Assembly (NCBI GenBank): GCA_032249095.1 | Contig: JAVVGN010000016.1 | Location: forward strand, 1 to 31,606 | DNA length: 31,606 nucleotides | Direction of reading: 5' to 3' | DNA from: Candidatus Caldarchaeales archaeon | Lineage (GTDB): Archaea > Thermoproteota > Nitrososphaeria_A > Caldarchaeales > Calditenuaceae | Part shown: positions 416 through 27,273 of the stretch, piece by piece | Position numbering within the stretch: the first letter of the stretch is position 1 | Layout: each line of letters opens with the position of its first letter | Translations under genes and position numbers: made by a program | The notes under the pieces: generated by a model | What the model was told of the DNA's origin: nothing | Databases searched by the model: none | Seen by the model: only the letters and a program-made list of their open reading frames with translations

Positions 416-715
416 GTGAAGCTGTCTAGGGTGGTTAGGAAGCGGCTTAGGAGCGATGCTGAGATTGAGGAGGTCGTTTCCAAGAGGCTTGAGAGGTCTG
501 GTAGCGCGGTCGTGATGAGCATACTTGGAAACTTCTCGGTGGATAGGGGGGAGTTCAGGACGGCCTCGGAGCGCGTCGTCTCCGTGATGTCTAGGATGGT
601 TGAGAGGGATCCGGCGAGGCTTGAGCTCACCGGCTCCGGGGTCAGGACCGTCATAAGGCTCAGGCAGCCCCCGAAGCCTCCCGAGGCTCCGGAGCAGCGG
701 CCGGCCGAGGGCTAG
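416..715 (+). CDS. hypothetical small protein (about 99 aa)
   Basis: This is the C-terminal two-thirds of ORF 197..715. From GTG 416 the translation (KLSRVVRKRLRSDAEIEEVVSKRLERSGSAVVMSILGNF...) is protein-like. The part upstream (197-415) is S/P-rich low complexity and overlaps the reverse-strand gene. Same orientation as, and 44 nt upstream of, the methyltransferase. Confidence 0.4.
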   Translation: MKLSRVVRKRLRSDAEIEEVVSKRLERSGSAVVMSILGNFSVDRGEFRTASERVVSVMSRMVERDPARLELTGSGVRTVIRLRQPPKPPEAPEQRPAEG

Positions 716-759
716 GAGGGCCACAACCCGATTTATATCCCTTCTACGCGGTCTATCCA

Positions 760-1587
760 GTGATAGCTCTAGGGTCCGTCTCGTTTCCAGAGCCTAGGAG
801 GGTCGAGGTTCCTGTGGCTCCGGCCTTCGGGCCCTACCGGAGGTTCTTCCCCCGCGAGGCGGTCGGGCACCCGGCCAAGGCCAACCTCCACCTGGTCGAG
901 AGGCTGGTGGAGCTCGTGAGTTCTCCTGGTGACGTTGTTCTGGACCCATTCGCCGGGACCTTCTCGACGTGCGTGGTCTCCGTCCTGGCGGGTAGGGGGG
1001 CCGTCGGCGTCGAGATCGATCGGGAGTACTTGGGCTGGGGCCTGGAGGCGTCTAGGAGGGTTTGGGCGGAGTCTGGGAGGTGCTTCCACGCCCTGTGGGC
1101 CGACGCCTCGATGATCGGCCAGCTCCTCCGCCCATCCTCCGTAGATGCAGTTGTTACTAGCCCTCCATATGTCCTCTCCTCTCTGCACGGTGGCGACGCT
1201 GTGAGGAGGCTTGAGAGGGTCCTGAGGGCTGGAAGAGACCCTAGGGACTTCTTCGGGGGCCTGGCCAGGAACGCGGTGCGCGGGCGCTCCCGCAGGCACG
1301 ACTACTACCCCCTCAGCCGCTGGATAGCCCTGATGAGGGAGGTGCTCTCGGGCCTCCGAGAGGTCCTGAGGAGCGGCTCTCTCGCCGCCTTCATAGTCAG
1401 GAACAGGATTAGGCGGGGGTCGCTCCTGGAGCTGGACTCCCTCCTCGCCTCCCTCGCGATTGGGGCCGGGTTCGCGGTCGAGGCGCTCTACTCGGCCCCG
1501 GCTCCCAGGAGCCTATGGGCCAACCTCCTAGCAAGGAGGGGTTTGGAGCTTCCGCGTGAGGATAGGGTCGTGGTCCTCAGGAGCTAG
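760..1587 (+). CDS. SAM-dependent N4-cytosine/N6-adenine DNA methyltransferase-like protein (PF01555-like motifs, permuted order)
   Basis: 'HPAKANLHLVERLVELVSSPGDVVLDPFAGTFST' (aa 37-70) matches the HPxxKP...DPFxGSGTT block. The catalytic 'TSPPY' lies at aa 133-137. 'GVEIDREY' follows motif I, as in N6_N4 MTases. Confidence 0.65.
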   Translation: MIALGSVSFPEPRRVEVPVAPAFGPYRRFFPREAVGHPAKANLHLVERLVELVSSPGDVVLDPFAGTFSTCVVSVLAGRGAVGVEIDREYLGWGLEASRRVWAESGRCFHALWADASMIGQLLRPSSVDAVVTSPPYVLSSLHGGDAVRRLERVLRAGRDPRDFFGGLARNAVRGRSRRHDYYPLSRWIALMREVLSGLREVLRSGSLAAFIVRNRIRRGSLLELDSLLASLAIGAGFAVEALYSAPAPRSLWANLLARRGLELPREDRVVVLRS

Positions 1588-1632
1588 GGCCTAGAAACCC
1601 TATATCTCGGGCTTAGTTGTTTGCTCCTAGGT

Positions 1633-1947
1633 ATGTCGTTGGAGGATAGGTTGAGGGAGGTTCTTGAGAGGGGTGGGGACTGGCGTAGGGTCCCGGTGAA
1701 GGGCCTGCCGGGGGTCTTCGTCGTCAAGGCTCCCGCCAGGGGGAGCAGGCCTGCCTCCCTTGTGGTGGAGCTGAACCCCCTCAACGAGGCCGGGGCGCCA
1801 TCCAAGAGGAGGGGCCTCTACCTCAGGAGCCTCAGGGAGCTCGAAGACTACAGGAAGATGCTTGGAGATGGGAGGCTCGAACAGTTGTTGAGGACCGTCG
1901 AGAAGGTGAACCCTGGGGGAGCGGAGAGGGAGGACCTAGAGATCTAG
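1633..1947 (+). CDS. hypothetical protein (104 aa)
   Basis: ORF 1621..1947; first ATG at 1633 (MSLEDRLREVLERGGDW...). Protein-like composition, no recognisable motif. Its end overlaps the convergent gene by 4 nt. Confidence 0.5.
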   Translation: MSLEDRLREVLERGGDWRRVPVKGLPGVFVVKAPARGSRPASLVVELNPLNEAGAPSKRRGLYLRSLRELEDYRKMLGDGRLEQLLRTVEKVNPGGAEREDLEI

Positions 1948-2384
1948 CGGAGGCCTGTTGGCTGCTCCTCGCTCCTATCCACTATCTTTATTCTTTCTCC
2001 GAGCTTGTCTGTCTTTCTGTAGAGCCATTTCGCCCTCCTCCCGGGCCTCCTCTCCCTCTCCAGTACTTCTAGTGTGGTTAGGTGTTCTAGTGCTGGTCTT
2101 ACGTGTTTGAAGTCTTTTGGGGCCCAGCCCCTCCTTAGGAGTTCTGAGGCTACGTCGCTGGCGCTCCTCCACTCGTCGAGGAAGCCCTCTAGGGCAAGCC
2201 TGACTATCCTTCCGTATAGCTCGTCTTCAGGGACCTTGATGTACTCGTACCTCCTCTCGTAGATTATCTTTGGGACAGAGCACTCTATCCTGACCTCGGG
2301 TATCCTGGAGAGTATTGCGCGGACTAGCTGTTCAAGGGCCTCTACCCTGTGCCTGAGCTCCTCTATCTCGTCCTCGATGCTCAT
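1944..2384 (-). CDS. coiled-coil plus winged-helix-like DNA-binding protein (146 aa), co-oriented downstream of the helicase
   Basis: The N-terminal heptad-like helix is MSIEDEIEELRHRVEALEQLVRAIL. The C-terminal segment SDVASELLRRGW...VRPALEHLTTLEVLERERRPGRRAKWLYRKT has a wHTH-like pattern. It lies 33 nt downstream of the helicase stop. Confidence 0.55.
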   Translation of the reverse strand: MSIEDEIEELRHRVEALEQLVRAILSRIPEVRIECSVPKIIYERRYEYIKVPEDELYGRIVRLALEGFLDEWRSASDVASELLRRGWAPKDFKHVRPALEHLTTLEVLERERRPGRRAKWLYRKTDKLGERIKIVDRSEEQPTGLR

Positions 2385-2417
2385 TCAATGTAGCTATCCA
2401 AATCGCGGTAGATAAGT

Positions 2418-4784
2418 TCAGATGGCCTCCACTACGTCGTGGATTAGTATTGTGGTTGTGCCGTTTAGCTTGGTTATTGTTGCTCTTGCCCTGAATCTTC
2501 TACCCTTCTTTATCAGTTCTCTGGGTCCGTTGTAGGCTGATGGTTCCAGCCTGGCCCTGAACCGGTCGTCTACGAGGACTATGGCGAAGCCCTGGTATAT
2601 CTTCTCTACCTCTATCGTCCTTATCCTTCCCTGCGGCCTAGCAGAGATTGGTCTTGACCTTAGGGCCGCGGCCGTGACGTATCTTTCCCCGACCCTCTTC
2701 ACCAGCCCCTCCCTCAATAGCCTGCCGAGGCTCCTCCTCACGGCCTCCGGGGTGTATGTGTGGCCCTCGTAGAGCTCTTGGAGCGTCGCCCCCCTAGCCC
2801 CAGCCTTGAGTAGCGTCATGTAGATGTGTTTTCGGCAGTGGTGGAGCTCGCTGCTTGACGGGCCCTCGACCTCCATCTCCTCAAGCTCTATCGGATTGAC
2901 CTCCTCAACGGTATCAGAGGTTGGGGCTGACTGCGCGGGTGGTAGCTCTATGGACAGCCCCTCCTCGGCCACGCTTTTCTGCTCCTCCCGCTCAGCCCTG
3001 TGTTCCCGATCCGCGGTTTCCATCTCTATTGCATGCTCTCCCTCCTCTTTCCTCCTCCATGGCCAGGGTGTCCCGGGCCGGGGCCTCTCGGCCCTCCTCT
3101 CCAGACTGACCGTCTTGTTTGATGCTTGTCTGAGTATCTTCTCCATCTTCCTGGCCCTCCTGTATCCTTCTCTGAAGTAGTACTCGTCTACGGTCTCCTC
3201 GGCCACTAGTATTACTGCCTTGCCGGGAAGCCTCCTCCCAGTCCTGCCCCTCCTCTGTATGTATCTTATCCCGGAGACGGCTGGCTCGTAGAAGACTACT
3301 AGGCCGCACTCAGGTATGTCTAGCCCCTCCTCTCCTATGCTGGTCGCGACTAGGACGTTGTAGGCTCCCTCCCTGAAGGCCTTGAGCGTCCTAGCCTGCT
3401 CCTCCTGCGTCATCCTGGGGCCCTGCTTCCCCTCCGCCTTGCCTATGAATAGTGCTGCCCTATACCCCCTCTCCCTGAGCCTCTCGACTAGGACCTCGGC
3501 CGTTGCCCTGATGTTGGCGAAGACCAGCACCCTGTCGTCCCCCTTCTCGGCGAAGTGGGCTGTGAGGACCGATGCCAGCGCCGCGACCTTCGTGTGGTCC
3601 GCCCTACACTCGTTGACCATCATCACGAGCCTCCGGTACTCCGGCATCCCGGCTATCATCCTGTGGCTCCTGAGCTCCGACCTCCCTATCTCCTCCAAGT
3701 ATCGTCTCAGGCTGTGGACGTGCTGGCTCTCTATCAGCTCCTCGGCGTGGTATAGGCTTAGTGCCGCCGAGATGAGGGCCATGTAGTGCATGTTGGGTCC
3801 TTTTACTCCCGCCTCTATCTCGGCCCTGAGCCTGTTCATCAGGCCGACTAGGACCTTCCTGTTGACGGCTTCGCGGGGGACCCTGAGCAGCCCGCCTATC
3901 CTCAGCCTCTCCAGCACCGACTCTATCATCCTCCTTATCTCCTGCCTGATGGCCTCGTATTCTTTTGGCAGTGCGACCCTGACCCAGCTAACCTTTACCC
4001 CCGGTATGTATCTCGATACCTCCTCCTCTTCCTCGCTCATCCAGACTATCTGCTCTATCCATAGGTTCCTCACGACCTCTACGACCTTCTCCTCCTCGGA
4101 GCCCGGCGACGCCGTCAGAGCAAGGATTAATGGATACGGGCACCTCCTGACGTACTCCTCCGCGAGCCTCGTGTAGGCGTATCGGCTCCTAGACCTGTGG
4201 CACTCGTCGAAGACTAGGAGAGCGAACTCCTCCAGCCCCACCAGGCCCCTCCTATAGTCGTTGAGGACTGCCTGCGGTGTCGCGGTGAATATCCTGACCC
4301 TAGGATCTCTCCAGACCATCGGCCTCCCGCCAGTCTCCCCGGTCACCGCCGCCACCTCGTGGCTCTCCAGCCTAAGGTGCCTCAGGACGGATTCCCTGTG
4401 CTGTAGCGCCAGGGGCTTCGTCGGCGCCATTATCAGGACCCTGCATCCAGGATATCTGTGGAGGAGCTCCGCGGCCACCAGCTCCGCTATTACCGTCTTC
4501 CCTAGGGCAGTCGGTAGGACCACGAGTGTGTTGGCCTGTAGAGCCCTCTCAACCATCCTCCTCTGGTACTCCCTGTCCTCTAGGACTCCCTCCCTCACCA
4601 TCGGGTGCTCAACGTAGCTGGCCCTGGGTGCCGAGAGTTCCTCCCTCACCTTCAGTATGTGCTTGCAGGCCGTGTGCCTGTAGGTGTAGTGGGGGCATGT
4701 GCAGCTCCAGGAGCCCTCGTCGCTAAGCGTGACCATGTATTCTACTCCTGGCTCCGACTGGCTCGGCACCCGCCAGCTCCTCAA
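2418..4784 (-). CDS. SWIM zinc-finger / Hef-FANCM-Mph1-like (COG1111-type) SF2 DEAH helicase with C-terminal wHTH and beta-rich domain
   Basis: SWIM CxCxnCxH motif: 'SCTCPHYTYRHTACKHI'. Helicase motifs: I 'LPTALGKT', II 'DECH', III 'TASPG', VI 'QRRGRTGR'. A large insertion sits between the RecA lobes, as in Hef/RIG-I-like enzymes. An acidic linker is followed by 'ATLQELYEGHTYTPEAVRRSLGRLLREGLVKRV' (wHTH-like) and a basic beta-rich tail of about 70 aa. The start is TTG 4784; GTG 4769 and ATG 4736 are alternatives, but ATG 4736 would cut into the SWIM strand. Confidence 0.85.
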   Translation of the reverse strand: MRSWRVPSQSEPGVEYMVTLSDEGSWSCTCPHYTYRHTACKHILKVREELSAPRASYVEHPMVREGVLEDREYQRRMVERALQANTLVVLPTALGKTVIAELVAAELLHRYPGCRVLIMAPTKPLALQHRESVLRHLRLESHEVAAVTGETGGRPMVWRDPRVRIFTATPQAVLNDYRRGLVGLEEFALLVFDECHRSRSRYAYTRLAEEYVRRCPYPLILALTASPGSEEEKVVEVVRNLWIEQIVWMSEEEEEVSRYIPGVKVSWVRVALPKEYEAIRQEIRRMIESVLERLRIGGLLRVPREAVNRKVLVGLMNRLRAEIEAGVKGPNMHYMALISAALSLYHAEELIESQHVHSLRRYLEEIGRSELRSHRMIAGMPEYRRLVMMVNECRADHTKVAALASVLTAHFAEKGDDRVLVFANIRATAEVLVERLRERGYRAALFIGKAEGKQGPRMTQEEQARTLKAFREGAYNVLVATSIGEEGLDIPECGLVVFYEPAVSGIRYIQRRGRTGRRLPGKAVILVAEETVDEYYFREGYRRARKMEKILRQASNKTVSLERRAERPRPGTPWPWRRKEEGEHAIEMETADREHRAEREEQKSVAEEGLSIELPPAQSAPTSDTVEEVNPIELEEMEVEGPSSSELHHCRKHIYMTLLKAGARGATLQELYEGHTYTPEAVRRSLGRLLREGLVKRVGERYVTAAALRSRPISARPQGRIRTIEVEKIYQGFAIVLVDDRFRARLEPSAYNGPRELIKKGRRFRARATITKLNGTTTILIHDVVEAI

Positions 4785-4796
4785 GCTGGCCCGACT

Positions 4797-4827
4797 ATGC
4801 TCCCGGCTCTAAAAAGGTTTTATGGTC
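4797..4827. promoter_or_regulatory. quasi-palindromic A/T box (TAAAA-AGG-TTTTA), copy 1; putative bidirectional BRE/TATA promoter
   Basis: atgctcccggctctaaaaaggttttatggtc. The box centre lies about 27-30 nt from the helicase TTG start (leaderless-type spacing on the - strand). It also lies upstream of the + strand micro-ORF. A near-identical copy occurs at 5116-5146. Confidence 0.4.
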
Positions 4828-4886
4828 TTCGTGCTATACGTCGTTCAGGGAGATCTTATATTGAGGTGATCTTTAGTATAGCTGAG

Positions 4887-4970
4887 GTGCAAGCAAGGAA
4901 GGCAAAGGCGAGGAGGAAGGCTCGGGCGAAAACCAAGAAGGCGGCTAAGAGGCCCGCAAGGAAGGCTTGA
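4887..4970 (+). CDS. putative Lys/Arg/Ala-rich micro-protein (27 aa from GTG 4887; 34 aa from GTG 4866)
   Basis: The frame reads (IFSIAE)VQARKAKARRKARAKTKKAAKRPARKA*. It lies between promoter copy 1 and a T5 tract at 5071. 'gctgagg' sits just upstream of GTG 4887. It is below normal gene-calling size, so the call is weak. Confidence 0.25.
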   Translation: MQARKAKARRKARAKTKKAAKRPARKA

Positions 4971-5070
4971 AGGAGCCGGCGGAGCCCAAACCGGAGGCCA
5001 CTCCTGAGGAGAAGCCTGCCGGAGAGGCGGCGCCCGCCTAGGAGCCCGAGTCGTCCACAAACCATCCACG

Positions 5071-5078
5071 TTTTTATT
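5071..5078 (+). terminator. oligo-T tract (tttttatt), putative archaeal terminator of the short purine-rich transcript
   Basis: A T5 run follows the purine-rich 4880-5050 segment and precedes promoter copy 2. Confidence 0.3.
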
Positions 5079-5115
5079 GGGGTCCGCCAGCATCCCTGGC
5101 CAAGGAATCCTGGCC

Positions 5116-5146
5116 ATGCTCCCAGCTCTAAAAGGGTTTTAGTGCC
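5116..5146. promoter_or_regulatory. quasi-palindromic A/T box, copy 2; putative promoter of the Hjc-like gene
   Basis: atgctcccagctctaaaagggttttagtgcc matches copy 1 at about 26 of 31 positions. The shared 'ctggcc' further upstream extends the match. It lies 45-60 nt upstream of ATG 5187. Confidence 0.4.
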
Positions 5147-5186
5147 TCTAACAGTTATAGCTGTTCGCGTGGGTGGTTTGTTTGGC

Positions 5187-5495
5187 ATGAGCTATAGGAG
5201 GGGGAGGAGGTTCGAGTATATTGTTAGGGATCTGTTCAGGAGTAGGGGGTGGTTTGTTGTGAGGGCCGCGGCGTCGAGGCCGGTGGACCTCGTATGCCTG
5301 AGGAGGGCTGGTGTGGGTGTGGTGGCCGTGCTGGTCGAGTGCAAGTATGGGGTGGGTTCTCCTAGGAGGTCTGACGCGGCTGGGCTGGTCGCCGCCGCTC
5401 GGAGGGCGGGCGCCACGCCGGTCCTAGCCTTTGCGGAGAAGAGGGGAAGGATGAGGATGATAGACGCAGAAAAGTGGTTAGACTTCACTCCCTAG
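5187..5495 (+). CDS. minimal Hjc/Hje-type Holliday-junction-resolvase-like PD-(D/E)xK endonuclease (102 aa)
   Basis: MSYRRGRRFEYIVRDLFRSRGWFVVRAAASRPVDLVCL...VLVECKYG has the Hjc pattern RKGxxxERxxxxxLxxxGFxVxRxxxS..DxIA...IExK. The catalytic set is intact at E10, D34, E51 and K53. First ATG of ORF 5142..5495. Confidence 0.75.
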   Translation: MSYRRGRRFEYIVRDLFRSRGWFVVRAAASRPVDLVCLRRAGVGVVAVLVECKYGVGSPRRSDAAGLVAAARRAGATPVLAFAEKRGRMRMIDAEKWLDFTP

Positions 5496-5597
5496 GCCAA
5501 GTCAGGTAGATAGGGAATCCTCCTCCACTTACCCGCGCCTCAATTGTCTGGAAGCCCTAAATATTGTTCCTTAGTCCCAGAGGGTTGTGGCGGCTTG

Positions 5598-6506
5598 ATG
5601 AGGGCGAGGTTTCTGGTGGCTGTTTTGGTGTTGGCGGCGCTGCTGTTCTCGGTCCTAGCGCTAGGCGGCATCTACAAGACTGGCGAGCCTGGGGGGAGGG
5701 GGGTTGCAACTCCCCTCTACGAGTCTAGAGGTGGGGCTGAACTAACAATTACTACGCGGAGAGAGACGACGCAGGGATCCACACAAACCACGGCTCACGA
5801 AACCATAGTGATATACTCCGCTCCCGAGAGGTGGCCGGAGGCGAGGCGGTACGCTCTTTTCGAGATAATCGATGTTCCGGGGAACGTATCCCTCTCTGTC
5901 GTCTACTTTGAGCGGGTTCCGAGCCTGAATGCAATCTACTACGAGCCGCTCCCGAATGGTTCGGTGGTAACACACTTCAACGTAACCTACATGCCGAGGC
6001 AGAACGAGACGGTCTACTTAGCGACCCTCGCATACGTCATTCGGGGCGATCCTAGGGAGCGGGGGATCGACGTGCCGGAAACTCTTTGCATCCGGCGGCA
6101 CGAGAACCCGTTGACGTTGGCTAACTGCTTCATAATCCCCGCCCTGGCCACGGACCTGCTCCTCGGGACGATCACAAGGGCGCTGGATCTTGGGCTGAAG
6201 ATCTTGTCGGGAGAGGAGTTGAGGCTGGACCTCATCGACGAGAATGGCAAGCGCTACGCCCCTGTGGAGAGGGTTGTCGTCGGTGTGATGAATATTACAG
6301 CGAGTGGTGGGTCCTGGTATCTGGCCTACAAGGAGTATGCCCTGCGGGGCCTAGGAGAGCACGTCATAGGCAGAGGCTCTTATGCCTTCATACTGCCTAG
6401 GGGCGCTAGGCCCCAGTACCTCTACCTATACGTCTCCAAGACCGGCCTACTATCCGTCTTTGATCCCGAGAAGGAGCGGCCGGTCGCCCTGATTAGGGTT
6501 GGTTAG
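5598..6506 (+). CDS. N-terminally anchored/secreted protein with multiple N-glycosylation sequons, function unknown
   Basis: From ATG 5598: MRARFLVAVLVLAALLFSVLALGG, a signal or anchor sequence. NxS/T sequons are NVS, NGS, NVT, NET and NIT. An A/T box (ctaaatattg, 5557-5566) lies upstream. Confidence 0.6.
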   Translation: MRARFLVAVLVLAALLFSVLALGGIYKTGEPGGRGVATPLYESRGGAELTITTRRETTQGSTQTTAHETIVIYSAPERWPEARRYALFEIIDVPGNVSLSVVYFERVPSLNAIYYEPLPNGSVVTHFNVTYMPRQNETVYLATLAYVIRGDPRERGIDVPETLCIRRHENPLTLANCFIIPALATDLLLGTITRALDLGLKILSGEELRLDLIDENGKRYAPVERVVVGVMNITASGGSWYLAYKEYALRGLGEHVIGRGSYAFILPRGARPQYLYLYVSKTGLLSVFDPEKERPVALIRVG

Positions 6507-6564
6507 GGTGGGGCTAGGAGCTGAGCGAGTCCTTCAGGAGGAGGATGAGGGCCAGCCTGTCGCC

Positions 6565-16860: not shown

Positions 16861-18090
16861 TCAAAGTATGGTTTGCTGACTTAACAGCTGTGGAATGATA
16901 CTACTAGCCTTAATGTATTTCGCAATACCCATCTTAAGCCCCTTGCCGACGACCTCTAAAGCCTCTTTCAAGCTCTGGAATTTAACGAAGGGCTTCTGGA
17001 GGGCGACTCGCGTAATTTCCCTAAACCTCCACACTCCGAGCGGTATCCATCCCCTGTCAACCTCGAAAAACACAACGGCACCTGCGTTCTCCCTCCTTTC
17101 TCGCAGATACCTCAACACGGATAGCCTGACGGCGTAGTAGGCGCCGCCCGTGTTTTCTGCATAGACCCTCCTCGGCTCCAGATACTCGTGGTCGCTGTAT
17201 ACAAGTCCCGCCTTCACCCAGCCCTCAAGCAGCTCGAACATCCATGGTGTCGGTGCGAGTAGTACGTATGCATAGTTGTGGTGAGCCCCGAATGCGAAGA
17301 GCCTATAATCGTTGATTGACTTGTAATGCTTCACTTGTTTATGGAGCTGGCGGGCGAGGATGTCGTCCATGGCGGTGATGCTCCACTCTGTCGGGACAAG
17401 CTTTCTTCCTATCCTACGCCCAAGGACACCAGCGGATAGAAGCCTTGTTAGATAGTACTCGTTAAAGCCTGCCTCTGAAAGCCGCTCAACAGCCTGCCAG
17501 GTGGTTAGATAGGGGTCCGAGACCACGCGCTCCACCTGCCTAGGTATGTGTGGATTATCCACCACCCTAAGCTGGCCTGCTGGGAAGGCTGGCCCGTAGG
17601 GCGCCGTCCTGAGCCCGAATCCGGGTGCGTATCGAGGGGAGCCCGCGGCTTTCACCTCAAGGTCGATGGGTTTGAGGGAGAGGGAAGACTCTTGGAGAGC
17701 GGACAGGAATTGCCGTGCCCTACTTGCCTCTGCTACGCTTAGGCGTTTCCTACCCAAGACCACGCTAAGCCTCATAGCTAGGAGTTGGTCTAGCTCGACG
17801 CTAAGCCATTCAGGAGGAGACTCTAGAAGCCTCAAGTCAACATCGGGGGAGGTAACTAGGCCACCGCCTGTATACACCCTTGGATAGCCCCATTCGCCAA
17901 CCAATATGTGGGGAGGTGTGGGGCCGAAGATCGCGCCCGTGGCGCTGATGGATCTGATGGCCTGCTTTACAGTGTCACGATAGAAGGGGCACTTCAGGAT
18001 GCTACAGAACCTAGCAACTCCGCGGCAGACTGGGCATGAAAGCACCTCAACCTCTCGCTCAGCAGTCCCCCGCTCTCCCGCCCAGTCCAC
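16861..18090 (-). CDS. Nre-family (DUF650/DUF651, COG1602) archaeal DNA repair protein
   Basis: The N-terminal Cys cluster 'CPVCRGVARFCSILKCP', 'VGEWGYPRV', the size of about 410 aa and the C-terminal 'QQTIL' tail match my recollection of the Nre family. Recalled from memory, not verified. GTG start. Confidence 0.55.
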   Translation of the reverse strand: MDWAGERGTAEREVEVLSCPVCRGVARFCSILKCPFYRDTVKQAIRSISATGAIFGPTPPHILVGEWGYPRVYTGGGLVTSPDVDLRLLESPPEWLSVELDQLLAMRLSVVLGRKRLSVAEASRARQFLSALQESSLSLKPIDLEVKAAGSPRYAPGFGLRTAPYGPAFPAGQLRVVDNPHIPRQVERVVSDPYLTTWQAVERLSEAGFNEYYLTRLLSAGVLGRRIGRKLVPTEWSITAMDDILARQLHKQVKHYKSINDYRLFAFGAHHNYAYVLLAPTPWMFELLEGWVKAGLVYSDHEYLEPRRVYAENTGGAYYAVRLSVLRYLRERRENAGAVVFFEVDRGWIPLGVWRFREITRVALQKPFVKFQSLKEALEVVGKGLKMGIAKYIKASSIIPQLLSQQTIL

Positions 18091-23739: not shown

Positions 23740-26700
23740 CTAGGCCGCTCCGGTTGCGATCGGCAGAATCTCCCTATGAAGGTCTCGCAGGACATCAAGA
23801 TAGCTTACCCTGCCCGACTCAACCTCGTCCATCAGAGCCTCTAGCCTCCTTGTCAGCTCCTCCGAGACGAGGTGACCATAATTCGACGTCAAGAAATCGT
23901 AGACCCTCTTGCCCAGATTGGTCGCCAATAATCTTCCCCGGTTCTGGAAGATGTAGCCTCTCTTATAGAGGATACCGATTATGTGGGCGTACGTGCTTGG
24001 TCTGCCGATGCTCCTCTCCTTCATCAAGCTAATCAGGTCTCCCTCCCTGAATAGCGGAGCAGCCGGAACCTTCCTCAGCGAGAGATCGACAACCTTCTGG
24101 ACACCTATCGGGAGCTGCTTCTCGATCCTGACCGAGGGATAAACCAGCGTGAAGCCTGGGCTCGCGATACCCGTAAGTCTCTCAAGCCTCAGAACCTCGC
24201 CCCCAACCCTGATCCTATATATGCTCTTCTGGACCCTGGCGCTGGTCATCTGGCTCGCGATGAAGCGCCTGAATACTAGGTCGTACAGGCCGAGTTCCTC
24301 GCTCTCGAGCCTCGCCGGTATCCTGAGCATCCCCGACTGGATGTAAAACTCTAGCTGCCGCCTGTTCAGCGGCTTCGTCGGCCTAATACACTCATGAGCT
24401 CCAGGGGCGCCGTAATGTCTGGGAGAAAAGAAGCCGCTATGGTTCTCCTCGATATATGTCCGCGCGACACTGATCCCTGTCGTAGAGACGTAGGTAGAGC
24501 CTGTGCGGTGATATGTTATTAGTCCTGACTCGAAGAGGGTTTGGGCTACACGCATCGTCTCAGAGGCTCCCATCTTGAGAATTATTGAGGCGTCGCGGAG
24601 AAGGGAGTCAGTTGTGTAGGGGGGTGGTGGTAGGACCTCTTCCTCAGAAACTCCCTCAACCGAGACCTCGATGTATAACGCATTCTCCTTGAAGAGTGCG
24701 GCCATTTCTTGGACCCTCGGCGGTTCAACTAGCTCCAGCTCCGTGCCGTCCTCAAGCCTCAGCAAAGCCATGATCCTCCTCTTTTTCGCCTCTTCCATTC
24801 TTTGAATGATCCAGCCTAGGACTGGGGTCTGGACCCGCCCAGCCGAGAGGGTCTTCCTACCGAAGTGCTCCCATAGTCTGCGGCTAAGCTCGAATCCCAC
24901 CCAGCGGTCCTCTATCCGCCTCACGACCTGCGCCTCGACAAGCGGGAGGGAGATATCCCTCGGCGACCTCAACGCCTCCCTAAGGGCGCGTCTAGTTATC
25001 TCGTGAAGCTCGAGACGCTTGATATTCCTGTTGAAGGGGTTGACGCTCACGTATAGGTCGTATCCTATTTTCTCCCCCTCCGAGTCGGGGTCCGTAGCGA
25101 TCAGCACCTCGTCAAACTCCAGCGCAAGGCTTCTAAGAGCCTCTATGATCCCCTTCTTACTATACAAATTTGTTGAGCCGCAGTTGGGGCATGCATCACC
25201 GCTCGTCAACTGGGCACCACATCTAGCGCACTTCCTGATCGTCGTATAGACCGGCACATAATCCACCCCCTCCAGAAGGACTCCGTGAAAACCACTCTCC
25301 GTGGAGAGATCCACAACATGCCCCTGAGACGCGGCAAAGCACGCAACGTAGCCCTCACCCATCGATTCGAAGACTGTGAGTCCATCGATCTCGCGCCTAG
25401 AAGGGGAGCCGAAGAAGTATGAGAGTGTGCGGGCCTTGGTCGGAGACTCGACTATGACTAGGGCCGAGCGTAAGAGGTCGACGTCGCCGACTGGTATGCG
25501 GCCCTCCATAATCTGGCGGATCCTCTGTCTATCCTCGTCGCACTTCCTGAACTCCTCTGCCGCAATGGACTCGGAGTATTCTCTGAACTCCTCCTCGTAG
25601 AGGGATTCGAGTCCACGCATAAGGCCCCTGAAGGCCTTCTCGTCGTCAACTAAGACTATGGATACGCCTCGCGTTATGCCGGCAGCGTACAGCCTCGATG
25701 CCCTGCCCGAGGCCTGTACATAGCCATCTATGTCTGGGAGGATTATTGAAAACCCCTGATCGCTAACCCTTAGCCTAAGGTCGTGCATCTCCGCTATCCT
25801 CCTGATCTCCCCCTCTTGGATGGCGCTGCGCAGAAGCTCTCGAGCCCTCTTCACTGCTCTGTAGACGTAGCCGGCGAAGCCCTCTGGTTCTTTACCGCTC
25901 TCCAAGGCTTTTCTGACCTCCTCAAGGACGTCAGCCCGCGTCGGTATGCATTTGAAGAGCATTCCCGAGACTGCTAAGACCTCGCTCCTATACCCCTCCT
26001 CAAGAATCGGCATAAGATACCTTATCACGCTCTGCAGGGCCGAGGGCCTATACTCGTTCCATGAGACAAGTAGCTCGCGTCTCGGAACACCCGCAAATAT
26101 CACATACCTGATTCTCTCCGGTAGATCAATTCCCCGCGCTAAGGGGCTTCTCGTGCTCGCAACGCCTATTAGGACCTCGTAGTCCCTCCTGACGAATCTC
26201 TCAAGCATCTTGGGGTTCATCCTCTCGTAGGCATAGGAGGGGATCCCGCTCTGGTTAAGGTGTCTGGCCAGGGTCTTCGCCAGCTGCAGGCCCCCTGACT
26301 GAGGGACGAATACGAGGCATCCCCCACCGTGTCTCCTGATCAGCTCCTCCACTTGACTTTCGATATCTTTGCTAGGCCTCAGGTAAAGATTTGCTATATT
26401 TCTAACTATGTCGATTTTGCTGCCGGGCTCGAAGTTTAGGGCCTTCCTGAAGAGTTTCACCCTCTTCGTTCTCCTTCCACGAACCGTCGCACCCGCCACT
26501 ATCAAGACGCTCTCAGGCTTCGCGGGGGTCTTAGGGTCTTGGGGGGTGCCCGGGCCCTCCGCGCGTGGGTTATCTTCCTCAGCCAAGAGCCTCTCGATCT
26601 GAGCCTCACTAAAGCCCATCAGGTTGAGAACCTTATCGATGTTTCGGGGAGACTTAAGGAACGAGTCTACATCATCGACGAATATGAATTTGAACCTCTT

Positions 26701-27273
26701 ATCCTTGATTAGGTCGAAGCGCGAGTATAGAAATCTGTCAGTCGTGACAATTATATCGAAATCTCCGGCCTGTATTTTTTTGATCGCTTCCTCCATTTCG
26801 CGTTTCCGCATCGAGGAGTAGTATCCGACTACTCGCGGCTTGTGTGGAGATAGGAGCTGGGTGTAGGAGGCGGCGCGGTCAAGAATGTGCTGGACAAGTA
26901 GGCTCGTGGGGACCAAGATGTATGACTTCTGGTTTTGGAGCGCGTTATGTAGGGCCGTGACCAGGCAGAAAGTTGTTTTTCCGGTCCCAGTAGGCGCGAC
27001 TATGGAGAAGCTTCTTCCCAGCAAAACCCTCTTTATCCACGTTCTCTGAAGGGACCAGGGCCTAGAACCGATGAGTCTCTGGAAAAACTCCTCAAACTCT
27101 GAGACCTTCTTGTGGAGCTGAAGGATCTCGGAGTACCTCCCAGGCTTTATCTCGACGACCCGCCCCTTCTCGACCCCGATTAGGCATGAACGGCAGACCC
27201 CATATTTAACTAGCTCCTCGTCTAAAATCGCCGCATCGCAGTTTGGGCATAGGCCGTCGTAGATTGACTTCAA
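23740..27273 (-). CDS. rgy: reverse gyrase
   Basis: 1177 aa. N-terminal Zn finger CPNC...CRSC. The helicase-like domain has 'APTGTGKTT' and 'FVDDVD'. The C-terminal topoisomerase IA module has Toprim 'IVESPTKA', an inserted CARCG...CPNCG finger and active-site 'ITYHRTGSTY'. TTG start. Confidence 0.95.
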   Translation of the reverse strand: MKSIYDGLCPNCDAAILDEELVKYGVCRSCLIGVEKGRVVEIKPGRYSEILQLHKKVSEFEEFFQRLIGSRPWSLQRTWIKRVLLGRSFSIVAPTGTGKTTFCLVTALHNALQNQKSYILVPTSLLVQHILDRAASYTQLLSPHKPRVVGYYSSMRKREMEEAIKKIQAGDFDIIVTTDRFLYSRFDLIKDKRFKFIFVDDVDSFLKSPRNIDKVLNLMGFSEAQIERLLAEEDNPRAEGPGTPQDPKTPAKPESVLIVAGATVRGRRTKRVKLFRKALNFEPGSKIDIVRNIANLYLRPSKDIESQVEELIRRHGGGCLVFVPQSGGLQLAKTLARHLNQSGIPSYAYERMNPKMLERFVRRDYEVLIGVASTRSPLARGIDLPERIRYVIFAGVPRRELLVSWNEYRPSALQSVIRYLMPILEEGYRSEVLAVSGMLFKCIPTRADVLEEVRKALESGKEPEGFAGYVYRAVKRARELLRSAIQEGEIRRIAEMHDLRLRVSDQGFSIILPDIDGYVQASGRASRLYAAGITRGVSIVLVDDEKAFRGLMRGLESLYEEEFREYSESIAAEEFRKCDEDRQRIRQIMEGRIPVGDVDLLRSALVIVESPTKARTLSYFFGSPSRREIDGLTVFESMGEGYVACFAASQGHVVDLSTESGFHGVLLEGVDYVPVYTTIRKCARCGAQLTSGDACPNCGSTNLYSKKGIIEALRSLALEFDEVLIATDPDSEGEKIGYDLYVSVNPFNRNIKRLELHEITRRALREALRSPRDISLPLVEAQVVRRIEDRWVGFELSRRLWEHFGRKTLSAGRVQTPVLGWIIQRMEEAKKRRIMALLRLEDGTELELVEPPRVQEMAALFKENALYIEVSVEGVSEEEVLPPPPYTTDSLLRDASIILKMGASETMRVAQTLFESGLITYHRTGSTYVSTTGISVARTYIEENHSGFFSPRHYGAPGAHECIRPTKPLNRRQLEFYIQSGMLRIPARLESEELGLYDLVFRRFIASQMTSARVQKSIYRIRVGGEVLRLERLTGIASPGFTLVYPSVRIEKQLPIGVQKVVDLSLRKVPAAPLFREGDLISLMKERSIGRPSTYAHIIGILYKRGYIFQNRGRLLATNLGKRVYDFLTSNYGHLVSEELTRRLEALMDEVESGRVSYLDVLRDLHREILPIATGAA

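What the first reader, a model, noticed from the sequence alone, without database searches (positions are those of the whole stretch)
1944..5495. Candidate 'split Hef' module: SWIM-Hef/FANCM-like helicase-wHTH fusion + small wHTH protein, divergent from a mini-Hjc nuclease
Seen: the 788-aa protein fuses five parts in this order:
- an N-terminal SWIM finger (CTCPHYTYRHTACKH)
- a Hef/Mph1/FANCM/RIG-I-type helicase core (PTALGKT, DECH, TASPG, QRRGRTGR, with an inter-lobe insertion)
- an acidic linker
- a wHTH
- a basic beta-rich tail of about 70 aa

It is followed 33 nt later by a coiled-coil/wHTH protein. Across a 400-nt spacer, under a duplicated promoter box, sits a 102-aa Hjc-fold nuclease.

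Established: euryarchaeal Hef joins this helicase type to an XPF/Mus81-type nuclease domain, whereas crenarchaeal XPF is a short form lacking a helicase domain.

Inference: the helicase and a separately encoded junction-cleaving nuclease could form a fork- or junction-processing system, or an anti-MGE system, with an architecture I do not recognise as described.
Basis: partly seen in the sequence, partly recalled or inferred. Interest (0 to 1): 0.72.

Follow-up and report, generated by a model that had tools for sequence, protein, structure and literature searches.

The report
Nuclease-less Hef helicase beside Hjc resolvase
A hot-spring archaeon keeps a Hef/FANCM-type DNA helicase that has lost its nuclease next to a small Holliday-junction-cutting enzyme and a conserved, unnamed 105-residue partner protein, which looks like an ordinary chromosomal fork-repair locus with some undescribed parts rather than a new kind of system.

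Summary
The 788-aa ORF (2418-4784, -) has these parts, in order:
- a SWIM finger
- a Hef-type SF2 core with a Hel2i insertion
- an acidic linker
- a confident wHTH
- a conserved basic beta-rich tail

A 146-aa ORF follows 33 nt later. A catalytically intact 102-aa Hjc-family nuclease lies 402 nt away on the other strand, and a 33-nt box is duplicated between them.

- **Known part.** The helicase is the nuclease-less "ERCC4-like helicase" (COG1111). The literature already reports it as encoded apart from XPF in Aigarchaeota and Thaumarchaeota.
- **Hjc link.** Hjc sits next to SWIM-bearing helicases in 8 of 9 sampled contexts, in three different arrangements. It is absent beside the non-SWIM relatives.
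- **146-aa protein.** It occurs only in close relatives of the window.
- **The conserved partner.** It abuts the helicase gene in 19 of 34 informative clusters.
- **Other neighbours.** In other lineages the neighbours are XPF with PolB, or NurA with HerA.

The setting is chromosomal with housekeeping genes, and no defence model matches. However, one near-identical strain has the helicase-Hjc block replaced by a GmrSD restriction gene.

Best reading: a fork- and junction-repair module. It is a new variant of a known kind.

The parts
1633..1947 (+). 'p108': an unannotated ~105-aa protein family and the most conserved gene partner of this helicase family. Its 3' end overlaps the 146-aa gene by 4 nt.
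   Evidence: Homologues directly abut the helicase gene on the same strand in L012, L013 and 19 of 34 informative 90%-identity clusters from 80 metagenome loci. It has no Pfam, NCBIfam, PHROG, PADLOC or PDB-sequence match. The AF2 model has pLDDT 56.
1944..2384 (-). 146-aa protein with an N-terminal coiled-coil-like segment. It is lineage-restricted, and its fold was not established.
   Evidence: It is found only in L001-3 and L015-19, which are close relatives. It has no family match and only a weak SlyA hit at E = 0.55. It is not homologous to the 'p125' family that occupies similar positions elsewhere (hhalign probability 7%).
2418..4784 (-). 788-aa nuclease-less Hef/FANCM-type helicase (COG1111, 'ERCC4-like helicase').
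4647..4733 (-). SWIM zinc finger (residues 18-46, CTCPHYTYRHTACKH).
   Evidence: Pfam PF04434 scores 24.0 bits against a cut-off of 19.6. Only 2 of the 150 best 50%-identity representatives carry it.
3234..4571 (-). SF2 helicase core: Hel1 (residues 72-232), Hel2i helical insertion (284-367) and Hel2 (401-517).
2865..3047 (-). Acidic, poorly conserved linker (residues ~580-640). The invariant PWPW motif (residues ~574-577, about 3053-3064) lies just before it.
   Evidence: From the translation and from the alignment conservation.
2658..2855 (-). Winged helix-turn-helix (residues ~644-709).
   Evidence: AF2 pLDDT is ~90. Foldseek hits are IclR, CymR and Rio2 wHTH domains. There are weak Pfam TrmB, EutK_C and Crp HTH hits, and homologues carry precomputed HTH_11, DeoR and HTH_24 hits.
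2424..2627 (-). Conserved basic beta-rich C-terminal domain (residues ~720-787). Its topology is b1-b2-b3-helix-b4-b5, which is OB-like by inspection.
   Evidence: AF2 pLDDT is ~65. The domain is conserved in ~21 of the 150 best representatives, including Bathyarchaeia and Nitrososphaerota. It has no PDB sequence match.
4790..4822 (.). Promoter-box copy 1. It contains a quasi-palindromic TAAAAAGGTTTTA. Its minus-strand TTTTTA lies ~26 nt upstream of the helicase start codon.
   Evidence: The TATA-box assignment is inference.
4823..5108 (.). 286-nt segment between the two box copies. It is absent from relatives such as L016, where one ~90-nt divergent intergenic region serves both genes.
5109..5141 (.). 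Promoter-box copy 2, ending 46 nt upstream of the Hjc ATG.
5187..5495 (+). 102-aa Hjc-family PD-(D/E)xK nuclease ('mini-Hjc'). The catalytic residues are E10, D34, E51 and K53.
   Evidence: Pfam Hjc scores 30.7 bits. The closest solved structure is Pfu Hjc 1gef at E = 4e-4. The family has 86 clusters of 84-127 aa. Catalytic columns are conserved in at least 99% of members.

Best explanation
This is a chromosomal DNA-repair locus of a Caldarchaeales (Aigarchaeota) archaeon.

What the parts are:
- The 788-aa protein is the lineage's nuclease-less 'split Hef' helicase.
- It keeps Hef's branched-DNA translocase core (Hel1, Hel2i, Hel2).
- The XPF nuclease and HhH2 of euryarchaeal Hef are replaced by a wHTH plus a small basic beta domain. 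That replacement is shared with Bathyarchaeia and other Nitrososphaerota.
- In this branch an N-terminal SWIM finger has been added.

Proposed mechanism (inferred, not shown):
1. The helicase loads on stalled forks or junctions through Hel2i and the accessory DNA-binding domains.
2. It uses ATP to regress or branch-migrate them.
3. The ~105-aa p108 protein acts as its accessory subunit.
4. The four-way junctions produced are cut by the co-expressed Hjc dimer. In other lineages the flaps or forks would be cut by the separately encoded XPF.

What is shown: the domain content, the conserved gene linkage and the chromosomal context. What is inferred: the biochemical activities, any physical complex and the role of p108.
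For: Helicase identity:
- The core is Hef-type and lacks a nuclease.
- The literature records a single ERCC4-like helicase gene, separate from XPF, in Ca. C. subterraneum and Thaumarchaeota.
- The only species-representative genome hit is a Ca. Caldarchaeum MAG.

Gene linkage:
- p108->helicase is a tight same-strand pair in L012, L013 and 19 of 34 informative clusters.
- L005 has p108, Hjc and the helicase all on one strand.
- Hjc is adjacent in 8 of 9 SWIM-helicase contexts, despite three different arrangements.
- p108 is followed by an Hjc in L048-51 (PF01870, 23.6 bits).
- XPF and PolB lie upstream of p108->helicase in L093/L094.
- NurA and a HerA-like ATPase lie upstream in L013/L014.
- The helicase and Hjc were lost together in strain variant L015.

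Context:
- The window carries reverse gyrase, Nre, ThiI, TtuA, IPMDH and ILVD.
- There are no viral-contig relatives.
- hef and hjc are synthetically lethal in H. volcanii, so both serve replication restart.
Against: - No biochemical or interaction data exist for this family.
- In Haloferax, Hef and Hjc act in parallel pathways, and Hef localisation is independent of Hjc. Adjacency may therefore reflect co-regulation rather than a complex.
- Hjc adjacency is confined to one clade (Caldarchaeales), so the contexts are not phylogenetically independent.
- One Hjc orthologue (L006) has no helicase within -7/+5 kb.
- The non-SWIM helicases show no Hjc nearby, although the family HMM has limited reach.
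- p108 has no recognisable fold.
- The locus lies in a variable region with R-M genes, and one strain has GmrSD in its place.
Confidence: 0.55

Rival explanations
1. Neighbourhood without mechanistic coupling. The helicase, Hjc and p108 are independent housekeeping repair genes. They stay close through inherited synteny or shared regulation. They act in parallel restart pathways, as in Haloferax, rather than on each other's products.
For: - Hef and Hjc define parallel pathways, and Hef foci are Hjc-independent in H. volcanii.
- The Hjc orthologue in L006 sits alone among housekeeping genes.
- Hjc adjacency is restricted to one order.
- p108 is unlinked to the helicase in 14 of 34 informative clusters.
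Against: - Adjacency survives at least three rearrangements (operon, divergent, 3-kb insertion) across 56-85% helicase identity.
- p108->helicase genes abut or overlap, which suggests translational coupling.
- All three pairwise links recur: p108-helicase, Hjc-helicase and p108-Hjc.
- The helicase and Hjc were lost as one block in L015.
Confidence: 0.25
2. Anti-mobile-element system. The SWIM-helicase senses or unwinds invading DNA and the Hjc-fold nuclease degrades it. The pair would be an exchangeable defence cassette, loosely analogous to Hachiman's helicase plus PD-(D/E)xK nuclease.
For: - In strain variant L015 exactly the helicase+Hjc block (window 2430-5493) is replaced by a 198-aa ORF plus a GmrSD type IV restriction enzyme (PF03235, 75.7 bits).
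- R-M, toxin or transposon genes lie near several pairs: the window's N6_N4 MTase, RE_MjaI x2 in L004, a 970-aa N6_Mtase/Eco57I protein in L095, TnpB in L096 and PIN in L007.
- A 43%-identical mini-Hjc lies in a virus-like context.
Against: - PADLOC gives only generic helicase-lobe hits, and nothing for Hjc, p108 or p146.
- Neither the helicase nor p108 has a relative on IMG/VR contigs.
- The helicase is orthologous to the single-copy COG1111 gene listed among core replication and repair genes.
- L005 shows the same p108 partner as the non-SWIM family.
- The wider family sits beside PolB, XPF, NurA/HerA and metabolic genes.
- L015 is one metagenome contig and could be chimeric.
Confidence: 0.1
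3. RNA-directed helicase. This would be a RIG-I/Dicer-like helicase working on RNA or R-loops, with the wHTH, the beta domain and p108 acting as nucleic-acid-binding modules. Hjc adjacency would then be incidental.
For: - The core is also similar to LGP2, RIG-I, MDA5 and Dicer helicases (E = 1e-35 to 1e-23).
- PF21210 is named as an RNA-helicase helical bundle.
- The top Foldseek hit for p108 is a dsRBD, but it is non-significant (E = 0.69) and comes from a low-confidence model.
Against: - The best matches by far are the Hef helicase domain (E = 2.7e-103) and FANCM (E = 3.9e-64).
- Every recurrent neighbour is a DNA enzyme: Hjc, XPF, PolB, NurA/HerA.
Confidence: 0.07

Closest known systems
Euryarchaeal Hef (P. 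furiosus, T. kodakarensis, H. volcanii), a helicase-XPF nuclease fusion
   Same: - SF2 core with a Hel2i insertion: 1wp9 at E = 2.7e-103, and NCBIfam Hef at 517 bits over the helicase half.
- A genetic connection to Hjc in replication restart.
   Different: - No ERCC4 nuclease or HhH2; a wHTH plus a beta domain takes their place.
- An extra N-terminal SWIM finger.
- A dedicated ~105-aa gene partner.
- The score is below the NCBIfam cut-off of 610.
'ERCC4-like helicase' (COG1111) of Thaumarchaeota and Ca. Caldiarchaeum subterraneum, noted as encoded separately from XPF (Nunoura et al. 2011, PMC3082918)
   Same: This is that gene family: same lineage, same nuclease-less state, and XPF encoded elsewhere.
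   Different: In the library searched, the literature records only presence or absence. It does not describe the SWIM finger, the C-terminal wHTH plus beta domain, the p108 operon or the Hjc adjacency.
Eukaryotic FANCM, Mph1 and Fml1 with their small partners (MHF1/2, FAAP24)
   Same: - A Hef-type translocase without an active nuclease: FANCM 9el5 at E = 3.9e-64.
- It works with small accessory proteins and remodels forks and junctions (established knowledge).
   Different: - p108 shows no detectable similarity to histone-fold MHF or to ERCC4-like FAAP24.
- The C-terminal domains are different.
Archaeal Hjc (P. furiosus 1gef, S. solfataricus 1hh1)
   Same: - It matches the Pfam Hjc domain over positions 6-92 of 93.
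- The E/D/E-x-K catalytic set is conserved.
   Different: - It is shorter: 98-102 aa against 123-143 aa.
- It is very divergent: NCBIfam Hjc equivalog 16 bits against a cut-off of 70.
- PGAP names its orthologues 'hypothetical' or 'restriction endonuclease'.
Sulfolobus PINA-Hjm(Hel308)-Hjc junction-processing set and bacterial RuvAB-RuvC
   Same: The concept of a branch-migration motor paired with a junction resolvase (PMC6061704, listed).
   Different: - The motor family is different: Hef-type SF2 rather than a AAA+ hexamer or Hel308.
- Here the pairing is genomic only and has not been tested.
Hachiman (HamA PD-(D/E)xK nuclease plus HamB helicase) and other helicase-nuclease defence systems
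   Same: A two-gene helicase plus PD-(D/E)xK nuclease layout, located in a variable region.
   Different: - No specific PADLOC model matches: HamB scores E = 1.2e-5 on the generic lobe only, and there is no HamA match.
- The context and the phyletic pattern are housekeeping.

Membership tests
Euryarchaeal Hef (NCBIfam NF010337, helicase-nuclease) | SF2 helicase core with a Hel2i-type insertion most similar to Hef | tested here: met
   1wp9 at E = 2.7e-103. NF010337 scores 517 bits over model positions 3-552. PF21210 matches residues 284-367.
Euryarchaeal Hef (NCBIfam NF010337, helicase-nuclease) | C-terminal XPF/ERCC4 nuclease domain plus HhH2 in the same polypeptide | tested here: not met
   No ERCC4 or HhH hit. 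Model positions 553-781 are unaligned and the score is below the cut-off of 610. The C-terminus folds as a wHTH plus a beta domain.
Nuclease-less 'ERCC4-like helicase' COG1111 of Nitrososphaerota/Aigarchaeota ('split Hef') | Hef-type helicase without a nuclease, in a Thaumarchaeota/Aigarchaeota-lineage genome | tested here: met
   The relatives come from Nitrososphaerota, Bathyarchaeia and Ca. Caldarchaeum MAGs.
Nuclease-less 'ERCC4-like helicase' COG1111 of Nitrososphaerota/Aigarchaeota ('split Hef') | A separately encoded short XPF nuclease in the same genome | not testable with these tools
   There is no XPF in the 31.6-kb window, and the rest of the genome is not available. XPF is seen 1-2.7 kb upstream of p108->helicase in the related loci L093 and L094.
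SWIM zinc finger (PF04434) | CxCxnCxH signature scoring above the Pfam gathering threshold | tested here: met
   CTCPHYTYRHTACKH; 24.0 bits against 19.6. It is conserved in homologues.
Archaeal Hjc (PF01870 / NCBIfam NF040854) | Hjc domain above the Pfam gathering score | tested here: met
   30.7 bits against 21.1, covering positions 6-92 of 93.
Archaeal Hjc (PF01870 / NCBIfam NF040854) | Catalytic E...D...E-x-K residues | tested here: met
   E10, D34, E51 and K53 are conserved in at least 99% of 76 members.
Archaeal Hjc (PF01870 / NCBIfam NF040854) | Equivalog-level similarity to characterised Hjc | tested here: not met
   NF040854 scores 16 bits against a cut-off of 70.
Archaeal Hjc (PF01870 / NCBIfam NF040854) | Dimeric, structure-specific cleavage of four-way junctions | not testable with these tools
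   This needs biochemistry.
Known anti-phage defence systems (PADLOC-DB 2.0) | Specific model hits to both components of a described system | tested here: not met
   The helicase gives only generic Helicase_C-lobe hits, and the Hjc, p108 and p146 proteins give none.
FANCM-MHF / FANCM-FAAP24 type complex | A small partner with a histone fold or an ERCC4-like fold | tested here: inconclusive
   p108 has no sequence match. Its AF2 model is low-confidence (pLDDT 56) and gives no Foldseek match.

The most novel reading that the evidence does not exclude
In Nitrososphaerota and Bathyarchaeia the nuclease-less Hef helicase forms an obligate complex with the unannotated p108 protein, much as FANCM works with small partners. 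In Caldarchaeales the SWIM finger recruits the short Hjc. Together they would form a motor-plus-resolvase 'resolvasome' for stalled forks and Holliday junctions. That would make this helicase a candidate for the long-sought branch-migration partner of Hjc in these archaea.
Probability: 0.25. Interest if true: 0.68.

Novelty: new variant of a known kind. Interest (0 to 1): 0.5.

Why it matters
- Archaeal Hef is the ancestor-like relative of FANCM, Mph1 and the RIG-I/Dicer helicases. Outside Euryarchaeota it is known only as a gene-presence call.
- Here the nuclease-less form proves to have its own conserved C-terminal module (wHTH plus a beta domain) and a dedicated small partner with no annotation. 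It also has recurring genomic links to Hjc, XPF and NurA/HerA.
- That yields concrete, testable hypotheses about how TACK archaea restart forks and resolve junctions. It also gives a name-worthy new protein family (p108).
- If the helicase does hand junctions to Hjc, it would bear on which motor serves Hjc in archaea.
- If not, this is simply a better annotation of an ordinary repair locus.

Tried and rejected
Searches that returned nothing specific:
- PADLOC and PHROGs on all six local proteins gave nothing specific.
- Viral-contig scans for p108 and the helicase gave no relatives.
- Profile searches of p108 (A3, A6) and of the beta tail (A5) against PDB sequences gave only chance-level hits.
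- Pfam on 19 diverse p108 members gave nothing meaningful.
- A paper search for Hef + SWIM + archaea + helicase found nothing relevant.

Structure predictions that did not resolve a fold:
The shallow alignment gave pLDDT 56, and Foldseek found nothing below E = 0.69.
- Foldseek on the C-terminal model recognised only the wHTH, so the fold class of the beta tail is unassigned.

Scans that failed or were too narrow:
- The metagenome scan with the beta-tail alignment failed because it had no sufficiently conserved stretch.
- The single genome-contig scan, run with the whole helicase, returned only one locus because its patterns were too specific.

Hypotheses rejected:
- p146 is not related to the 'p125' coiled-coil family found at the equivalent position elsewhere (hhalign probability 7%).
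- The 286-nt segment between the box copies is not a repeated mobile element. It has no other copy in the window or in 97 loci.
- A second Hjc, a second p108 or an XPF in the window: none was found.

Full report
**1. The observation.**
- The helicase is 2418-4784(-), 788 aa.
- A 146-aa ORF lies at 1944-2384(-), 33 nt downstream.
- An Hjc-like ORF lies on the other strand. Its conserved start is ATG 5187, giving 102 aa and a 402-nt spacer.

*Helicase domains.*
- Pfam finds SWIM (residues 18-46, above threshold), DEAD, the Hel2i-like helical bundle and Helicase_C.
- NCBIfam's 'Hef nuclease' model scores 517 bits but aligns only over its helicase half, positions 3-552 of 781. The score is below the cut-off of 610.
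- The closest solved structures are the P. furiosus Hef helicase domain (E = 2.7e-103), then FANCM, then LGP2 and RIG-I.

*C-terminal region.*
- An AlphaFold2 model of residues 630-788 gives a confident wHTH (pLDDT ~90).
- It gives a moderately confident five-strand, one-helix domain (pLDDT ~65).
- Foldseek recognises only the wHTH.
- The strand order b1-b2-b3-helix-b4-b5 looks OB-like. That is my reading of the DSSP string, not a tested match.

*Intergenic region and Hjc.*
- The 'duplicated promoter box' is real: 33 nt at 85% identity, at 4790-4822 and 5109-5141. The core has two matches against 0.00 expected.
- The small nuclease passes the Pfam Hjc threshold.
- Its E/D/E-x-K residues are conserved in at least 99% of 76 family members.
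- It is far from characterised Hjc proteins: NCBIfam 16 bits against 70, and 1gef at E = 4e-4.

**2. Where it comes from.**
- The identical helicase is on NCBI assembly GCA_032249815.1.
- The only species-representative genome with a relative is a Ca. Caldarchaeum MAG at 57% identity. That genus belongs to Caldarchaeales, Nitrososphaerota.
- The rest of the window is ordinary chromosome: reverse gyrase, Nre, ThiI, TtuA, diphthamide synthase, IPMDH, ILVD, an ABC transporter and tRNA-Ala.

**3. What is already known.**
- Nunoura et al. 2011 state that Ca. C. subterraneum has a single ERCC4-like helicase (COG1111). They also state that, unlike Pyrococcus Hef, the helicase and the XPF nuclease are encoded separately there, as in Thaumarchaeota.
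- So 'split Hef' in this lineage is established, and the cognate split-off nuclease is XPF, not Hjc.
- I found nothing in the searchable library on the domain additions or on the gene partners.

**4. The wider family.** A sensitive search of 1.84 billion representatives found three kinds of relatives.
- Two clusters share the full SWIM-to-tail architecture (62% and 38% identity).
- About 21 of the best 150 share the core plus the C-terminal beta tail, but without SWIM.
- The remainder are classical Hef proteins matching only the core.

Named members are from Bathyarchaeia and Nitrososphaerota MAGs, annotated only as 'helicase-related protein' or 'FANCM'. The tail is a well-conserved ~65-aa domain.

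**5. Neighbours: the 146-aa protein.** It occurs only in the window's close relatives (L001-3, L015-19) and has no family match. It is not a conserved partner.

- Hjc is directly upstream and co-directional in L005 and L007.
- It is divergent across ~90-400 nt in the window, L016-18, L095, L096 and L097.
- It is 3 kb away, behind an inserted 953-aa gene, in L004.
- That is 8 of 9 distinct SWIM-helicase contexts, spanning 56-85% helicase identity and three arrangements.
- The exceptions are L012, the most divergent SWIM helicase with short flanks; L006, an Hjc orthologue among housekeeping genes with no helicase nearby; and a 43%-identical Hjc in a virus-like context.
- No Hjc was detected beside any non-SWIM helicase. 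The family HMM has limited reach for distant Hjc.

**7. Neighbours: the missed partner, p108.** The ORF at window 1633-1947(+) ends 4 nt inside the 146-aa gene. It has homologues in L005, L007, L012 and L013.
- In L012 it is 10 nt from the helicase start. In L013 it abuts the helicase start.
- A metagenome scan with a p108 alignment found 282 loci, of which the best 80 were kept.
- Of 69 loci with enough downstream sequence, 32 have a tail-type helicase abutting or overlapping on the same strand.
- At 90% clustering, that is 19 of 34 informative clusters.
- L005 has p108, Hjc and the helicase all on one strand.
- In L048-51, p108 is followed ~280 nt later by a 164-aa Hjc-family protein (PF01870, 23.6 bits) with no helicase in view.
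- p108 matches nothing in Pfam, NCBIfam, PHROGs, PADLOC or PDB sequences, and its model is unreliable.
- It has a conserved basic stretch followed by a terminal E-[VI]-I-E-[LI] tail.

**8. Other recurrent neighbours.**
- In L094 the order is PolB, a short XPF (218 aa, ERK motif plus HhH2), a 229-aa gene, p108 and the helicase, all on one strand. L093 has XPF 2.7 kb upstream.
- In L013 and L014, a NurA-domain protein and a DUF87 (HerA-like) ATPase precede p108->helicase.
- Every recurring neighbour is a DNA replication or repair enzyme.

**9. The promoter region.**
- Relatives such as L016 have a single ~90-nt divergent intergenic region with one TATA-rich element.
- The window has a 319-nt duplication or insertion that gives each gene its own copy of the box.
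- Together with the operons in L005 and L007, this argues for linked regulation. The TATA assignments are inference.

**10. Evidence pointing the other way.**
- Contig L015 is 96.8% identical to window 428-2429. It then replaces exactly the helicase-spacer-Hjc block (2430-5493) with a 198-aa ORF and a GmrSD type IV restriction enzyme. Homology resumes at window 5494.
- R-M, toxin or transposon genes also lie near several helicase-Hjc pairs.
- L016-18 lack window 5494-7161.

So the pair sits in a variable region and can be lost as a unit. That supports treating the helicase and Hjc as one unit. It also keeps a defence reading alive at about 10%.

Against defence:
- There are no specific PADLOC hits and no viral-contig relatives.
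- The helicase is orthologous to the single-copy core gene.
- L005 shows the same p108 partner as the non-SWIM family.
- The wider family sits in housekeeping contexts.

**11. Mechanism (inferred).**
- The Hef helicase domain and FANCM, Mph1 and Fml1 remodel forks and junctions; this is established for those proteins.
- hef and hjc are synthetically lethal in H. volcanii and serve alternative restart routes.
- I propose that the helicase, with p108, regresses or branch-migrates stalled forks. The co-expressed Hjc, or XPF elsewhere in the genome, would cut the products.
- The wHTH, the beta domain and SWIM would replace the junction-binding and dimerising role of the lost nuclease and HhH2.
- SWIM presence and Hjc adjacency coincide, which suggests that SWIM mediates that link. 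This is a single-clade correlation.
- The Haloferax data (parallel pathways, Hjc-independent Hef foci) caution that co-location may mean co-regulation rather than a complex.

**12. Verdict.**
- It is a member of the known nuclease-less COG1111 helicase group.
- The undescribed parts are the domain additions, a conserved unannotated partner family, and a clade-specific link to a short Hjc.
- It is a new variant of a known kind, of moderate interest (0.5).

Noticed in passing
window 1633-1947 (+): An unannotated ~105-aa protein family ('p108') with no match in any library. It has a conserved terminal E-[VI]-I-E-[LI] tail. It is the most conserved neighbour of the helicase family (282 metagenome loci).
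   Followed up: yes
L015 2854-5351, against window 2430-5493: In a near-identical strain contig (96.8% over the left flank), the helicase+spacer+Hjc block is precisely replaced by a 198-aa ORF and a 556-aa GmrSD type IV restriction enzyme. It could be a real strain polymorphism or an assembly chimera.
   Followed up: partly
window 4823-5108, including 4887-4970 (+): The 286-nt segment between the duplicated boxes is absent from relatives and has no other copy. It carries three degenerate 23-nt direct repeats. It also has a possible 27-codon K/R/A-rich ORF (VQARKAKARRKARAKTKKAAKRPARKA), placed downstream of the plus-strand side of box copy 1.
   Followed up: partly
L093 2806-3462; L094 4447-7407: A short XPF nuclease (218 aa, ERK motif plus HhH2), preceded in L094 by a family-B DNA polymerase. 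It lies on the same strand 1-2.7 kb upstream of the p108->helicase pair. This is the actual 'split Hef' nuclease sitting nearby in one lineage.
   Followed up: partly
L013/L014 1851-5562: A 622-aa NurA-domain protein and a 619-aa DUF87 (HerA-like) ATPase lie directly upstream of p108->helicase on the same strand. Both are larger than typical archaeal NurA and HerA.
   Followed up: partly
L007 9802-10179 (-); L012 6553-6921 (+); L021 4090-4416; L024, L029, L066, L068; L072 4322-4717: A second unannotated small family ('p125'): an N-terminal coiled coil plus a C-terminal 'LPWRPY..G.GEW.Y...G.Y.Y' domain. It recurs near p108 or the helicase in at least 15 loci. It is absent from the window, where the unrelated 146-aa gene occupies the same position.
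   Followed up: partly
L005 ~4512; L007 ~12988; L012 ~7068: Small zinc-ribbon proteins with the motif YC.RCR...C..CG..LR.SPRKK recur within a few kb of the module in three loci. None is found in the first 9 kb of the window. L005 (5368-5640) and L012 (3104-3499) also share a C[IL]IC...C..C protein.
   Followed up: no
window 5494-7161: The 320-aa (5544-6506) and 188-aa (6565-7131) ORFs have no family match. They are missing from relatives L016-18, where Hjc is followed directly by the homologue of window 7162 onward. This is another variable segment at the same junction.
   Followed up: partly
L095 5720-5914; L096 4208-6025: In two metagenome contigs the SWIM region (L095), or the SWIM region and the core (L096), are in different reading frames. 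This means frameshifts, either sequencing errors or decay of the helicase beside an intact Hjc.
   Followed up: no
window 760-1587 (+): A 275-aa N6/N4 DNA methyltransferase. Its only Pfam match places the model's C-terminal part (161-216 of 221) at protein residues 36-91, so it is a permuted or partial match. No cognate restriction gene was recognised in the window.
   Followed up: no
window 16861-18090 (-) and 23740-27273 (-): An archaeal Nre-family protein (Nre_N plus Nre_C) and a reverse gyrase lie in the same window, 12-19 kb from the helicase.
   Followed up: no
L005 3639-4458 (-): Two to three weaker p108-like matches (E = 7e-17 to 9e-4) lie just upstream of the bona fide p108 in the Ca. 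Caldarchaeum locus. They suggest local paralogues or decayed copies.
   Followed up: no
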